From NCBI GenBank assembly GCA_000002435.2, contig AACB03000022.1: a DNA stretch of 2,678 nt; one strand, given 5' to 3'. Source of the stretch: Giardia intestinalis. Lineage: Eukaryota. Positions 1-2,678 of the stretch are shown here, in pieces. The notes below the pieces were generated by a model. It did not search any database. It was not told the origin of the DNA and saw nothing but the letters and a program-made list of their open reading frames with translations. The position numbers and the translations under genes were made by a program. Each line of letters begins with the position of its first letter. Positions within the stretch are counted from its first letter, which is position 1.

Positions 1-982
1 CTGGGCCTTGGCGTCGTTCATGGCTCCGAGGTTTTCGGTCAGGGCAGAGACCCTGTCCTCAGCGGCGGCGAGCTGGGCGCGGGCGGTCTGCAGGGCGTCC
101 TGGGCCTCCGCCAGCTGAGCCGCGAGGGCATCTCGCTCGGCCTCCAGATTCTTGTGCTCGGCCTCCAGAGCTGCGCCTCGTCGAGGGCCTTATCGAGGGC
201 CGCACGGGCCTCATCGCGCTCGGCCTCTGCAGCACGCACGTCGGCTCAAGGCGGCGGATGGCCTCGTCGCCGCCCTGCGCCTGCTGTGCCTTGGCGCGGA
301 ACTTCTCTCGGCGGCATCGGCGAGGGCCTCTGTGCCTGCTGCTGCGTGTGCCTCGAGCTCGGCGATTTTGGCGCGGGCGTCGGCAAGCCTTTCTTCGGCG
401 GCCTTGGCCTGAGCTCCAGCTCTGCAGCGCGCTCTGCAAGCGCCTCTGCGTCGCGAGCACGCACGGCATCTTCGGCCGCCTGCTCGCGGAGGCGCGCCAG
501 CTCCTCGGAGAGATCCTCGAGCTGGGCCGCCTTGAGCTGGGCGTCTTCCTGGTGGGCGGCGGCCTGCTCGCGCGCTTCACGGAGCGCCGCTGCGTTCTCG
601 GCTGCGTCGCGGCGGAGGGCTGCAAGCTCCTGCTGAAGCTGCTGCGCGGCGTCGCCGTGGTCGGCAATCCCGTCGATCGCCTCTGCAAGCGCCTTCTCGC
701 GGGCCTCGAGCTTGTCTGTAAGGGCGGCGCTTTCGTCTTCGAGGCGACGGATCCTGTTCTGGGCGTCCTCGAGCGCGCCGTCTGTAGCGCTTCTTTTGAG
801 GTCCATGGCAGTAAGCTGGCGCTCGCGGTCCCGGACCTCCTCTGCTCGCGCTTCGGCCTTGCGGCCAGCGATTGAAGGGCACTCTCCAGCTCGTCGACGC
901 GGTTGCGCAGCCGTGCCGTCTTGGCGGCGCTTTCTTCTGCTTGCTCTGCCTTGCGGCTGCCTCGTCCTCCAGGGCTTGAATC
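1..982. repeat. Copy A of the long direct repeat, truncated by the window start. It is homologous to 1697..2678.
   Basis: Base-by-base comparison: identical to 1697..2678 except for indels at about 175 (-g), 245 (-c), 306-307 (+ct), 414 (-c), 426 (-a) and 842 (+c), plus four sites where B carries the change. There are no substitutions. Confidence 0.95.
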
Positions 983-2678
983 CGCGTTCTGGCGGCCTCG
1001 ACACTGGCCGTTGTTCGGGAAAGTTCGTCACTCAGCTGGCCGATCTCCTTGTCCTTTGCATCAAGGGTGGCATGGAGGTCATCTCGCTCGGCCTCGAGTT
1101 GAACGATGCGCTCTGCAGCGCCTTCATTGTCTTGCGCACGTAGTTGTTGAAGCTCGCGCTCGCGGTTGTCTGCCTCCTCGCGAAGTCTTTCTGCCTCATT
1201 CCGGAGCATGTCAAGCGCCACTGTCTTCTCATCGAGCTCGCCCTGCTTTTGCTCCAGCTCCTTCCTAAGAGCGCTTGCTTCAATAGTATATAATTTGAGT
1301 ATCTGACATCTGTGATTTAAGCTCACTAACAAAATCTTCCAACCGTTGAGTACGTTCTTTGGAATCGTTCGCTCTTTCCTCTGATGCCTTATTTAATTTT
1401 TTCAGGTCTGCTACCTCTGTCAAAAGTTCCTTTTTGTCGCGCTCGAGTTGAGCCACGCGATCAACAAGATCTTGAGATTCCTCTGCCTCTAGTTTCATAG
1501 TGGCAATTTCATCCATTTGTGCATTTAAGTTATCCAATAGCTCCGCCATCTGAATTTCATTGGCTTGTGCCTCATGGGTTCGTCTGGCAAATTCCATCTG
1601 GGACGCGACAAGCGTCTGCTGGAGTTGGATGATCTCCTCTTGGTGCTGGCGAATCGCTTGTCGAAGATCTGGGATGGTATCCTGCATCTCGCGGATCTGG
1701 GCCTTGGCGTCGTTCATGGCTCCGAGGTTTTCGGTCAGGGCAGAGACCCTGTCCTCAGCGGCGGCGAGCTGGGCGCGGGCGGTCTGCAGGGCGTCCTGGG
1801 CCTCCGCCAGCTGAGCCGCGAGGGCATCTCGCTCGGCCTCCAGATTCTTGTGCTCGGCCTCCAGAGCTGCGGCCTCGTCGAGGGCCTTATCGAGGGCCGC
1901 ACGGGCCTCATCGCGCTCGGCCTCTGCAGCACGCACGTCGGCCTCAAGGCGGCGGATGGCCTCGTCGCCGCCCTGCGCCTGCTGTGCCTTGGCGCGGAAC
2001 TTCTCGGCGGCATCGGCGAGGGCCTCTGTGCCTGCTGCTGCGTGTGCCTCGAGCTCGGCGATTTTGGCGCGGGCGTCGGCAAGCCTTTCTTCGGCGGCCT
2101 TGGCCTGAGCCTCCAGCTCTGCAAGCGCGCTCTGCAAGCGCCTCTGCGTCGCGAGCACGCACGGCATCTTCGGCCGCCTGCTCGCGGAGGCGCGCCAGCT
2201 CCTCGGAGAGATCCTCGAGCTGGGCCGCCTTGAGCTGGGCGTCTTCCTGGTGGGCGGCGGCCTGCTCGCGCGCTTCACGGAGCGCCGCTGCGTTCTCGGC
2301 TGCGTCGCGGCGGAGGGCTGCAAGCTCCTGCTGAAGCTGCTGCGCGGCGTCGCCGTGGTCGGCAATCCGTCGATCGCCTCTGCAAGCGCCTTCTCGCGGG
2401 CCTCGAGCTTGTCTGTAAGGGCGGCGCTTTCGTCTTCGAGGCGACGGATCCTGTTCTGGGCGTCCTCGAGCGCGCCGTCTGTAAGCGCTTCTTTTGAGGT
2501 CCATGGCAGTAAGCTGGCGCTCGCGGTCCCGGACCTCCTTGCTCGCGCTTCGGCCTTGCGGCCAGCGATTGAAGGGCACTCTCCAGCTCGTCGACGCGGT
2601 TGCGCAGCCGTGCCGTCTTGGCGGGCTTTCTTCTGCTTGCTCTGCCCTTGCGGCTGCCTCGTCCTCCAGGGCTTGAAT
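1..2678 (-). CDS. Internal fragment (both ends open) of a giant, tandemly repetitive coiled-coil protein gene. The reading frame is interrupted by about a dozen 1-2 nt indels, so it looks either frameshifted/pseudogene-like or laden with indel errors.
   Basis: All six minus-strand ORFs in the track (39..239, 59..688, 246..1031, 577..1332, 1280..2365, 1944..2579) contain long heptad-like A/E/R/L/Q/D/K-rich segments typical of alpha-helical coiled coils. Each of these segments is flanked by P/R/S/T-rich 'wrong-frame' sequence at the exact positions where the two repeat copies differ by an indel. Sense blocks in different frames abut one another and together tile the whole window. The plus-strand ORFs translate to L/G/S/R low-complexity mirror images (GAG->CTC, GCC->GGC). 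No start codon context or terminator is visible. Confidence 0.7.
411..872 (-). CDS. Sense-frame block of about 154 aa in repeat copy A. It is the sense part of track ORF 246..1031.
   Basis: Translation IAGRKAEARAEEVRDRERQLTAMDLKRSATDGALEDAQNRIRRLEDESAALTDKLEAREKALAEAIDGIADHGDAAQQLQQELAALRRDAAENAAALREAREQAAAHQEDAQLKAAQLEDLSEELARLREQAAEDAVRARDAEALAERAAELEL. The corresponding stretch of copy B is split by two compensating indels at about 2484 and 2368. Confidence 0.65.
949..1299 (-). CDS. Sense-frame block of about 117 aa of the same coiled-coil gene. It is the sense part of track ORF 577..1332.
   Basis: Translation LKLYTIEASALRKELEQKQGELDEKTVALDMLRNEAERLREEADNRERELQQLRAQDNEGAAERIVQLEAERDDLHATLDAKDKEIGQLSDELSRTTASVEAARTRIQALEDEAAAR. 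It continues the heptad pattern directly after the block ending at 1283, one frame over. Confidence 0.65.
1283..1570. other. Low-GC compositional island (roughly 40% GC) embedded in coding sequence that is otherwise about 70-80% GC.
   Basis: Hand counts of 60-bp blocks: 1321-1380 is about 43%, 1381-1440 about 38%, 1501-1560 about 37%. For comparison, 61-120 is about 80% and 481-540 about 72%. The flanks 1000-1283 and 1570-1750 are intermediate at about 55-60%. The minus-strand coiled-coil frame stays open across the island. Confidence 0.85.
1283..2128 (-). CDS. Longest uninterrupted sense-frame block, about 282 aa, of the coiled-coil gene. It is the sense portion of track ORF 1280..2365; the first 79 aa of that ORF are out of frame.
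   Basis: Translation ALAELEAQAKAAEERLADARAKIAELEAHAAAGTEALADAAEKFRAKAQQAQGGDEAIRRLEADVRAAEAERDEARAALDKALDEAAALEAEHKNLEAERDALAAQLAEAQDALQTARAQLAAAEDRVSALTENLGAMNDAKAQIREMQDTIPDLRQ...RLEDFVSELKSQMSDTQIIYY*. The block runs without a stop through both the GC-rich DNA and the ~40%-GC DNA. Its terminal TGA at 1280-1282 is probably not a real C-terminus (see findings). Confidence 0.75.
2117..2142. repeat. Local 13+13 nt tandem micro-repeat ctctgcaagcgcg|ctctgcaagcgcc. In copy A (420..444) it is 12+13 nt.
   Basis: Seen directly in the sequence. On the sense strand the 12-nt core gcgcttgcagag encodes A-L-A-E in both units, but the units are 13 nt apart. A frame change therefore sits here in copy B and not in copy A. 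Confidence 0.8.
2124..2366 (-). CDS. Sense-frame block of about 81 aa in repeat copy B. It is the sense part of track ORF 1944..2579.
   Basis: Translation IADHGDAAQQLQQELAALRRDAAENAAALREAREQAAAHQEDAQLKAAQLEDLSEELARLREQAAEDAVRARDAEALAERA, identical to the matching part of copy A. It is bounded by indel sites at about 2368 and about 2126. Confidence 0.55.

What the first reader, a model, noticed from the sequence alone, without database searches (positions are those of the whole stretch)
1283..1570. Abrupt GC trough (about 40% versus about 70-80%) inside a continuously open coiled-coil frame, giving a mosaic gene composition
AT-rich DNA of this length would normally hit a stop roughly every 20 codons in a non-coding frame. 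Yet the minus-strand frame stays open for about 95 codons through the trough and keeps its heptad character. This is strong evidence that the trough is coding. The codon usage changes (GAA/AAA/ATT/TTA in place of GAG/GCC/CTC/CGC). The amino-acid composition changes too, from A/E/R/L-rich to K/I/N/Q/M/D/T-rich, as in NLNAQMDEIATMKLEAEESQDLVDRVAQLERDKKELLTEVADLKKLNKASEERANDSKERTQRLEDFVSELKSQMSDTQ. GC falls in a graded way on both sides, from about 70% through about 57% and about 40% to about 55% and back to about 70%. Possible explanations are a module acquired by recombination or HGT from a lower-GC source and then incorporated into every repeat unit, or a functionally distinct segment, such as a binding or hinge region, held under different compositional constraint. 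Each 1696-bp unit would carry one such island.
Basis: seen in the sequence. Interest (0 to 1): 0.55.

Follow-up and report, generated by a model that had tools for sequence, protein, structure and literature searches.

The report
Host-typical segment in GC-rich Giardia repeat
The low-GC stretch is an ordinary, Giardia-typical coding piece of a 1.7-kb repeat unit in a giant ankyrin/coiled-coil gene; the unusual part is the very GC-rich rest of the repeat, so this is not a foreign insert.

Summary
The GC trough is real. GC is 0.40 at 1283-1570 and 0.70 outside it, with shoulders near 0.56. One of six frames is open for 96 codons (P about 9e-4) and keeps heptad periodicity.

The window comes from a Giardia duodenalis-group gene. 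It matches assemblage B GSB_151937 at about 88% nucleotide identity, and it is the syntenic ortholog of the G. muris 4580-aa 'Axoneme-associated protein'.

Giardia DNA around this gene is 44% GC, and the genome is 46.3%. The trough therefore has host composition: GC 0.41, against 0.43 predicted from its amino acids with host codon usage. The anomaly is the rest of the unit, with GC 0.71 and GC3 0.78 where 0.38 is predicted.

The trough-encoded peptide has a homolog in every unit of the G. muris array (5.18 perfect 1611-nt units). There the GC profile is flat, so the module is old and native. HGT and chimerism are rejected.

The two overlapping copies in the window differ by 11 indels and no substitutions. 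The frame breaks, including the stop at 1280-1282, therefore look like sequencing errors.

Why only part of a homogenised unit is GC-enriched remains unresolved. A local GC-biased fixation process is my best guess.

The parts
1283..1570 (-). GC trough as reported: 96 open codons encoding AQANEIQMAELLDNLNAQMDEIATMK...SELKSQMSDTQIIYY.
   Evidence: GC is 0.399 here and 0.696 outside. This frame has 0 stops and the other five have 4-8.
1283..1597 (-). Full low-GC coding segment of the repeat unit (MEFARRTHEAQ...KSQMSDTQ). Its composition and codon usage are host-typical.
   Evidence: GC is 0.410 and GC3 is 0.375. Its amino acids with host codon usage predict 0.433 and 0.435.
1505..1714 (-). Best-conserved block of the unit (NDAKAQIREMQDTIPDLRQAIRQHQEEIIQLQQTLVASQMEFARRTHEAQANEIQMAELLDNLNAQMDEI). 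It straddles the GC drop.
   Evidence: Identity to the G. muris unit is 60-73% here, against 20-47% elsewhere.
1571..1700 (-). Upper shoulder, the ramp from high to low GC in the sense direction.
   Evidence: GC is 0.554. GC3 is still 0.71 over 1598-1699.
982..1282 (-). Lower shoulder, the intermediate-GC part of the unit that follows the trough in the sense direction.
   Evidence: GC is 0.587 and GC3 is 0.61, where 0.405 is predicted with host codons.
1697..2678 (-). High-GC, Ala/Glu-rich part of the unit, upstream copy (copy B).
   Evidence: It equals 1-981 apart from indels. Over 1700-2440, GC is 0.709 and GC3 is 0.78. It is 88% identical in DNA to Giardia duodenalis assemblage B L001:1-510.
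1..981 (-). High-GC part of the next unit, downstream copy (copy A).
   Evidence: There are 0 substitutions and 11 indels against 1697-2678. Over 1-743, GC is 0.710 and GC3 is 0.78.
982..2678 (-). One complete repeat unit of about 1697 nt as read, 566-567 codons after frame repair.
   Evidence: Start-to-start spacing is 1696-1698. The stitched unit is 567 codons.
1280..1312 (-). In-frame TGA (1280-1282) and the frameshift that moves the coiled-coil reading to another frame. This is probably a sequencing indel in an A/T run.
   Evidence: The repaired reading SELKSQM..LKLYTIEASALRKELEQ is collinear with G. muris ELQAALTERTSAITALENEATELRQVIEQ.
1598..1600 (-). Codon for the Q of ...QQTLVASQ. This phase is where the array ends in assemblage B and a unique low-GC tail begins.
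   Evidence: Similarity between L001 or L003 and the window stops here.
2384..2434 (-). DESAALTDKLEAREKAL (also at 687-737). This phase is where the array begins in assemblage B.
   Evidence: L003:9603-9653 and L004 read DENAALTDKLEAREKAL just before the 100-N gap. GC jumps there from about 0.38 to 0.70.

Best explanation
SHOWN. The window is 1.58 units of a tandem array of about 1.7 kb (566-567 codons). The array lies inside a giant Giardia duodenalis-group gene with N-terminal ankyrin repeats and a long alpha-helical coiled-coil rod. This gene is the syntenic ortholog of the G. muris 'Axoneme-associated protein' TNJ27669.1.

SHOWN. The 'trough' is the part of each unit whose base composition and codon usage equal those of the Giardia genome. 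The remaining 1.0-1.3 kb of the unit is the true outlier: GC 0.71, GC3 0.78 and 33% Ala in a 44-46% GC genome. About 0.12 of the 0.30 GC gap comes from amino-acid content, a difference partly shared with G. muris. About 0.18 comes from synonymous sites.

SHOWN. The trough module is ancient and native. It sits in every unit of the G. muris array, where GC is flat. The mosaic therefore arose in the G. duodenalis lineage by GC enrichment of most of the unit. It did not arise by import of AT-rich DNA.

SHOWN. High GC3 is kept in two assemblages despite heavy synonymous turnover.

INFERRED. A continuing, locally acting GC-favouring fixation bias holds most of the unit at high GC. My preferred candidate is GC-biased repair or conversion during the recombination that keeps the units identical. 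Local selection for Giardia's G/C-ending optimal codons is the alternative.

INFERRED. The trough is a segment that this process does not reach, or where it is opposed.

INFERRED. The frame breaks in the window are sequencing indels.
For: Host and orthology. The only homolog of the stitched unit is G. duodenalis GSB_151937, with 88% DNA identity over about 510 nt. The only homolog of the trough peptide among 1.84 billion representatives is G. muris TNJ27669.1 (E = 6e-147, 7 stretches). The gene order NGP1-type GTPase, protein kinase, this gene, then a gene of about 3000 aa is the same in both species. Ankyrin repeats are found at the N-terminus (Ank_2, E = 1.5e-32).

Host composition. L001 background is 0.35-0.50. 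Seven genes or gene segments of L003 together give GC 0.441 and GC3 0.492. The gene's own unique 5' part is 0.425/0.409. Genome G+C is 46.3% (PMC7641422).

Decomposition. Observed against predicted GC is 0.410/0.433 for the trough and 0.709/0.554 for the high part.

Antiquity. The units are collinear with 41% identity. G. muris GC is 0.53-0.69, and GC3 is 0.60-0.83 in the trough homolog.

Homogenisation. G. muris has 5.18 units with zero mismatches. The window copies have zero substitutions.

Maintenance. Between the window and assemblage B, 50 of 166 codons differ synonymously and 13 change the amino acid. GC3 is nevertheless 0.77 and 0.735.

Array edges. Sequence flanking the array in assemblage B is low-GC, and its upstream flank aligns weakly with the unit.

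Precedent. Giardia rDNA arrays are about 75% GC, spacers included, and gBGC has been proposed for them (PMC10123126). All 26 optimal Giardia codons end in G or C (PMC8393687).
Against: The GC-biased conversion step is not demonstrated. No polarised substitution or polymorphism data were available.

A process tied to array homogenisation should also act on the trough, which lies inside the same unit.

The perfectly homogenised G. muris array is barely GC-enriched: 0.599 against 0.572 for the rest of the gene.

Codon selection linked to expression should also raise GC3 in the gene's unique parts, and it does not.

The host codon reference comes from assemblage B, and the window is from another, unidentified assemblage.

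No assemblage A protein or contig was recovered.

Only one trough copy was seen in G. duodenalis.
Confidence: 0.72

Rival explanations
1. The trough is a module acquired by recombination or horizontal transfer from a lower-GC organism and then spread to every repeat unit.
For: There is an abrupt change in composition and codon usage within one reading frame.
Against: The trough matches the host genome, not a foreign one: GC 0.41 against host 0.44, and 0.433 is predicted from its amino acids with host codons.

A homologous module lies at the same place in every unit of the G. muris ortholog.

No homolog exists outside Giardia in 1.84 billion representatives, nor in the PDB, Pfam or plasmid collections searched.
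Confidence: 0.03
2. The trough is a functionally distinct protein segment, such as a binding site, stutter or hinge. Its amino-acid requirements, or a need for slowly translated A/T-ending codons, would keep it AT-rich while the rest of the rod is free to drift GC-rich.
For: The best-conserved block of the unit (1505-1714, 60-73% identity to G. muris, including the conserved DTIPDLRQ) overlaps the upper shoulder and the first third of the trough.

The trough homolog in G. muris is also poorer in G/A/R/P residues and richer in F/Y/M/I/N/K residues (the amino acids with AT-rich codons) than the rest of the unit: 0.25 and 0.20, against 0.31 and 0.10.

The trough uses non-optimal A/T-ending codons (PMC8393687).
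Against: The largest part of the gap is synonymous (GC3 0.375 against 0.78), and protein function does not dictate that.

Two thirds of the trough (1283-1500) is no better conserved than the rest, at 30-43%.

In G. muris the homologous codons have GC3 of 0.60-0.83, so a rare-codon cluster is not conserved.

The model is one unbroken helix with pLDDT of 90 across the border.

The trough simply equals the host default, which needs no special constraint.
Confidence: 0.15
3. The AT-rich island serves at the nucleic-acid level. It could be an internal or antisense promoter, since Giardia promoters are short AT-rich elements, or another DNA or RNA signal repeated once per unit.
For: The sense strand carries AAAAAATTAAATAA at about 1390-1403. 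This resembles AT-rich Giardia initiator elements, a comparison made from memory and not tested.
Against: There is no Rfam match. There is no excess RNA structure (z = -0.52). The composition is just the genome average. There is no AT-rich island in G. muris.
Confidence: 0.05
4. The mosaic, the repeat, or both are artefacts. Either reads from two organisms were joined in a chimera, or a circular or rolling-circle molecule was read twice.
For: The sequence is error-prone: 11 indels between the copies and 12 frame hops. The repeat copies are otherwise identical.
Against: The order high-GC, conserved block, trough, mid-GC, high-GC is collinear with the G. muris unit across both junctions.

G. muris has a genuine 5.18-unit array in a PacBio chromosome.

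Three assemblage B assemblies break or leave a gap exactly at the array borders.
Confidence: 0.03

Closest known systems
Giardia muris 'Axoneme-associated protein' TNJ27669.1 (A0A4Z1T577), 4580 aa
   Same: It is the syntenic ortholog. It has N-terminal ankyrin repeats and a long coiled coil. It holds a tandem array of DNA-identical units (537 aa) that are collinear with the window's unit, and each unit carries the trough homolog.
   Different: Unit identity is only 41%. The unit is 1611 nt rather than about 1700 nt. The array starts and ends at different phases. The GC profile is flat (0.53-0.69) with no trough and no strongly GC-enriched part.
Giardia duodenalis assemblage B GSB_151937 (ESU43523.1, partial) and the same gene on ENA metagenome scaffolds L003 and L004
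   Same: This is the same gene in another assemblage. It has 88% DNA identity over the last 510 nt of the array, with mostly synonymous differences. Its GC3 is high in the same way, at 0.735.
   Different: These assemblies lack the array interior, because of a contig end or a 100-N gap. None of them shows the trough. They supply the unique low-GC 5' part and tail that the window lacks.
GASP-180 / 'head-stalk' family of Giardia (ankyrin repeats plus coiled coil; Elmendorf et al. 2005, recalled from memory) and ankyrin-repeat 'Protein 21.1' genes
   Same: The architecture is the same: an ankyrin head and a coiled-coil stalk. The source's name for the G. muris ortholog points to this family. WB GASP-180 genes are also GC-rich, with exon GC of 66.56% (PMC10711314).
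   Different: No significant sequence match between the trough or the unit and any GASP-180 protein was returned. Axonemal localisation of this protein is untested.
GC-rich, concertedly evolving tandem arrays such as Giardia rDNA (about 75% GC), for which GC-biased gene conversion has been proposed
   Same: It is a tandem array with identical units and GC far above the genome mean, including at sites free of protein constraint (PMC10123126).
   Different: This array codes for protein, and only part of each unit is enriched. No bias in substitution direction has been measured.

Membership tests
Horizontally acquired or foreign compositional island | Its composition and codon usage deviate from the host genome. 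| tested here: not met
   Trough GC is 0.41 and GC3 is 0.375. Host locus GC is 0.44 and GC3 is 0.49. The prediction from its amino acids with host codons is 0.433. Genome G+C is 46.3%.
Horizontally acquired or foreign compositional island | It is absent from orthologs of related species, or closest to a foreign donor. | tested here: not met
   It is present in every unit of the G. muris ortholog. No other hit was found in 1.84 billion representatives.
Giardia ankyrin plus coiled-coil 'head-stalk' proteins (GASP-180-like) | N-terminal ankyrin repeats. | tested here: met
   The assemblage B ortholog gives Ank_2 with E = 1.5e-32 at residues 11-151. The G. muris ortholog has PF12796. The N-terminus itself is not in the window.
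Giardia ankyrin plus coiled-coil 'head-stalk' proteins (GASP-180-like) | A long alpha-helical coiled-coil stalk. | tested here: met
   Heptad periodicity is present. The model has a single helix over residues 2-202 with pLDDT of 90. Only weak coiled-coil Pfam hits were found.
Giardia ankyrin plus coiled-coil 'head-stalk' proteins (GASP-180-like) | Sequence homology to GASP-180 itself, and axoneme association. | not tested
   No GASP-180 protein appeared among the significant hits, but no direct comparison was run. Localisation cannot be tested with these tools.
Tandem array under concerted evolution | Units within a species are (near) identical while orthologous units between species are diverged. 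| tested here: met
   The window copies have 0 substitutions in 981 nt. G. muris units have 0 mismatches. Between species the units share 41% amino-acid identity.
GC-biased gene conversion tract | GC3 is raised above flanking and genome levels independently of protein content. | tested here: met
   GC3 is 0.78 against a predicted 0.38. Unique parts of the same gene are at 0.41.
GC-biased gene conversion tract | An excess of AT-to-GC fixations in polarised substitutions or polymorphisms, linked to recombination. | not testable with these tools
   Only two G. duodenalis sequences overlap, over 166 codons. The outgroup is saturated at 41% amino-acid identity. The unpolarised counts are 37 against 26.
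Assembly chimera | Junctions are not supported by any related sequence. | tested here: not met
   Both junctions of the trough are collinear with the G. muris unit.

The most novel reading that the evidence does not exclude
The saw-tooth GC3 profile falls from about 0.9 to about 0.35 within roughly 200 nt and climbs back over about 1 kb. It recurs once per unit of a perfectly homogenised coding array. It could be a footprint of GC-biased gene conversion with a fixed hot and cold structure inside the unit. That would be a readable record of recombination-associated repair bias in Giardia, an organism in which meiosis has never been observed. It would also show that this bias has pushed a structural protein to 33% alanine.
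Probability: 0.2. Interest if true: 0.55.

Novelty: new member of a known kind. Interest (0 to 1): 0.3.

Why it matters
Practical point. Once the host is known, the signal inverts.

Annotation. The interior of this repeat array, trough included, is missing from every G. duodenalis protein and contig I could reach. It is replaced there by gaps or contig ends. The window therefore shows sequence that current gene models of this large cytoskeletal gene lack.

Evolution. Inside one gene of a 46% GC genome, a homogenised array holds GC3 near 0.78 over most of its unit and leaves 315 nt at host level. This is a compact natural test case for separating GC-biased conversion from codon selection in Giardia.

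Caveat. None of this is established beyond the composition facts.

Tried and rejected
- Plasmid BLAST of 1000-1700 found no match.
- The second word-indexed protein search, with the trough plus the mid part, found nothing, not even the G. muris ortholog. The third, with the assemblage B tail, found only assemblage B proteins. The assemblage A ortholog therefore stayed out of reach.
- Exact look-ups of two window ORFs, meant to find the source contig, found nothing on record.
- Two metagenome DNA scans, one with a degenerate trough pattern and one with a 26-mer shared with assemblage B, gave no hits.
- Rfam, RNA folding and PDB sequence searches of the trough found nothing.
- Literature searches found no description of this gene's repeat or of its GC mosaic.
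- I rejected pseudogene decay as the cause of the frame breaks. The copies show indels only, mostly changes in homopolymer length, and no substitutions.
- I rejected gene-wide, expression-driven codon bias. The unique parts of the same gene have GC3 of 0.41.
- I rejected a hinge at the GC border, because the helix is continuous in the model.
Full report
OBSERVATION. GC is 0.399 in 1283-1570, against 0.696 in 1-1000 plus 1701-2678 (binomial z = -10.9). The shoulders are 0.571 (1001-1282) and 0.554 (1571-1700). The lowest 288-nt window of the whole sequence starts at 1274. One minus-strand frame has no stop in 96 codons, while the other five frames have 4-8. At this composition the chance of no stop is about 9e-4. 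The encoded peptide keeps a 3.5-residue hydrophobic periodicity, which only 1.3% of shuffles reach. A single-sequence AlphaFold model of window:1283-1900:- is one helix from residue 2 to 202 with mean pLDDT of 90. It shows no break at the GC border.

SEQUENCE QUALITY AND THE REPEAT. Positions 1-981 repeat 1697-2678 with a spacing of 1696-1698. The two copies differ at 11 places. Every difference is a one- or two-base indel, mostly a change in homopolymer length, and none is a substitution. To follow the coiled-coil reading through the window, the frame must hop 12 times. At each hop inside the duplicated region the other copy is intact. The frame through the trough ends in TGA at 1280-1282, and the reading resumes in another frame after a shift near 1290-1312. 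I read these breaks as sequencing errors of a long-read or homopolymer-sensitive platform, not as biology. The WB PacBio paper reports frameshift-truncated genes in its draft assembly (PMC7000408). The title phrase 'continuously open' is therefore true only for 1283-2132.

WHOSE DNA IT IS. The stitched unit of about 567 aa has one significant homolog in the 5.8-billion-protein index. This is Giardia duodenalis assemblage B GSB_151937, a partial gene at a contig end. At the DNA level the window and that gene are about 88% identical over the last 510 nt or so of the repeat. Of 166 codons, 103 are identical, 50 differ only synonymously and 13 change the amino acid. This is an orthologous gene under purifying selection in a different assemblage.

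An exhaustive HMMER scan of 1.84 billion representatives with the trough peptide found a single protein, with E = 6e-147 in seven stretches. It is Giardia muris TNJ27669.1, named 'Axoneme-associated protein', 4580 aa. The gene order is the same in G. muris and in two assemblage B metagenome scaffolds: NGP1-type GTPase, protein kinase, this gene, then a gene of about 3000 aa. The assemblage B scaffolds show the whole gene frame. It has an N-terminal ankyrin head (Ank_2, E = 1.5e-32) and 3.2 kb of unique coiled coil. A 100-N gap stands where the array belongs, and a unique tail follows.

THE COMPOSITION ARGUMENT INVERTS. The Giardia background at this locus is 0.35-0.50 GC. Seven genes or gene segments of L003 together are 0.441 GC with GC3 of 0.492. 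The unique 5' part of this very gene is 0.425 with GC3 of 0.409. The published genome value is 46.3% for G. intestinalis, against 54.7% for G. muris (PMC7641422). CDS GC is mostly 45-55% (PMC8393687).

The trough (1283-1597) has GC of 0.410 and GC3 of 0.375. Its amino acids translated with host codon usage predict 0.433 and 0.435, so it is simply host-typical. The high part has GC of 0.709 and GC3 of 0.78, where 0.554 and 0.38 are predicted. Of the 0.30 gap, about 0.12 is amino-acid content (Ala 33% against 11%) and about 0.18 is synonymous codon choice.

THE MODULE IS OLD AND NATIVE. The G. muris gene holds 8346 nt of perfect 1611-nt periodicity, which is 5.18 units with zero mismatches. The window's unit aligns collinearly with it at 41% identity. 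The order is high part, conserved block, trough homolog, middle, high part. That excludes both a chimeric join and a recent foreign insertion.

The best-conserved stretch (60-73% identity) is NDAKAQIREMQDTIPDLRQ...LLDNLNAQMDEI at window 1505-1714. It spans the upper shoulder and the first third of the trough. The rest of the trough is conserved no better than the rest of the unit.

In G. muris the composition is flat, with GC of 0.53-0.69, and GC3 in the trough homolog is 0.60-0.83. The mosaic is therefore specific to the G. duodenalis lineage. Part of the amino-acid contrast is ancestral. In G. muris the fractions of G/A/R/P and of F/Y/M/I/N/K residues are 0.25 and 0.20 in the trough homolog, against 0.31 and 0.10 in the high part. 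In the window the high part has moved further, to a G/A/R/P fraction of 0.42 and Ala of 0.30.

ARRAY BORDERS. In assemblage B the array begins at DENAALTDKLEAREKAL, which corresponds to window 2384-2434 and 687-737. GC jumps there from about 0.38 to 0.70 within a few codons. The array ends at ...QQTIVASQ, which corresponds to window 1598-1600, exactly at the upper edge of the trough. Low-GC unique sequence follows.

If the window's assemblage has the same borders, the array must hold at least two troughs. The reason is that the window's upstream copy extends 5' of the entry phase with array-type sequence.

The G. muris array enters and exits at other phases, ARRSALLDDAKEQ and IAKIAQLE. The 370 residues before the assemblage B array align weakly but collinearly with the unit (25% identity, E = 2e-7). 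They may be a decayed old copy at host composition.

MECHANISM. The following points are shown:
- The gene is native to Giardia.
- The tandem array is homogenised.
- The trough has host composition.
- The remainder of the unit is GC-enriched, mainly at synonymous sites.
- That enrichment is shared by two assemblages despite synonymous differences in 30% of codons. This points to a continuing bias and not to a relic.

The cause of the bias is inferred. I favour a local GC-biased fixation process tied to the recombination that homogenises the array. This is analogous to what has been proposed for Giardia's 75% GC rDNA arrays and spacers (PMC10123126). The shift of the protein toward amino acids with GC-rich codons fits a process that is blind to function.

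Two facts argue against a simple version of this idea. The trough lies within the same homogenised unit, and the G. muris array is hardly enriched (0.599 against 0.572). Selection for Giardia's G/C-ending optimal codons (PMC8393687) is the main alternative. It fails to explain why the unique parts of the same transcript have GC3 of 0.41. I could not separate these two explanations (see note).

OTHER CHECKS. No Rfam family matches the window. The trough has no excess RNA structure (z = -0.52). There is no PDB sequence relative. Only generic coiled-coil Pfam hits were found for the unit.

COMPARISON WITH WHAT IS KNOWN, AND VERDICT. The gene belongs, by architecture and by orthology, to the Giardia ankyrin-plus-coiled-coil group that includes GASP-180. 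WB GASP-180 genes are also GC-rich, with exon GC of 66.56% (PMC10711314). No direct homology to GASP-180 was shown.

The array behaves like other concertedly evolving tandem arrays. The finding is a real compositional feature whose proposed meaning, a foreign low-GC module, is not supported. The trough is the normal part.

What remains mildly interesting is the partial GC enrichment of a perfectly homogenised coding repeat. It is also notable that the interior of this array is absent from the G. duodenalis gene models I could reach. Interest is 0.3, and the novelty class is new member of a known kind.

Noticed in passing
window 1-981 vs 1697-2678: The two repeat copies differ by 11 one- or two-base indels, mostly changes in homopolymer length, and by no substitution. 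Each indel breaks the reading frame in one copy only. This is the signature of an error-prone long-read or homopolymer-sensitive platform, not of diverged repeats or a pseudogene.
   Followed up: yes
L002:7956-16301 (G. muris CM016927.1, gene 5001-18743): The G. muris ortholog holds 8346 nt of perfect 1611-nt periodicity, which is 5.18 units with zero mismatches. The array starts and ends at different phases of the unit than in G. duodenalis assemblage B. The borders have therefore moved, or the arrays expanded independently.
   Followed up: partly
L003:6361-10001 and L004:6360-10001: Two ENA metagenome scaffolds (ERZ28615481, ERZ28636381) are Giardia assemblage B. The repeat array is replaced by a 100-N gap. 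No gene was called across this stretch, although one frame is open for 1415 codons from the ankyrin head to the tail.
   Followed up: partly
L003:8546-9652 (assemblage B residues 715-1083 of the gene): The unique low-GC region just upstream of the array aligns collinearly with the repeat unit (25% identity over 398 columns, E = 2e-7). It may be an old, decayed copy of the unit that has relaxed to host composition. The score rests largely on the last 30 residues.
   Followed up: partly
window ~1390-1403 (sense strand AAAAAATTAAATAA): This A/T run inside the trough resembles the short AT-rich promoter or initiator elements of Giardia (recalled from memory). It could in principle start internal or antisense transcripts once per unit.
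   Followed up: no
G. duodenalis WB genes GL50803_0061565 and GL50803_00137716 (not in the window): Table 1 of PMC10711314 lists exon GC of 66.56% for both GASP-180 copies, with an identical non-canonical 42-nt 'intron' in each. PMC4570179 reports above-average read depth for a GASP-180 gene. Another duplicated ankyrin/coiled-coil gene is thus also far above genome GC.
   Followed up: no
protein databases: No assemblage A (WB) ortholog of this gene was returned by any search, with the unit, the trough or the assemblage B tail as query. Either the gene is unannotated or broken there, or the word-indexed searches missed it.
   Followed up: partly
window 1598-1822: The GC3 profile along the unit is a saw-tooth. 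In the sense direction it falls from about 0.9 (1733-1822) to about 0.4 (1508-1597) within roughly 200 nt. It then climbs back over about 1 kb (0.33, 0.50, 0.6-0.7, then 0.8-0.9).
   Followed up: partly
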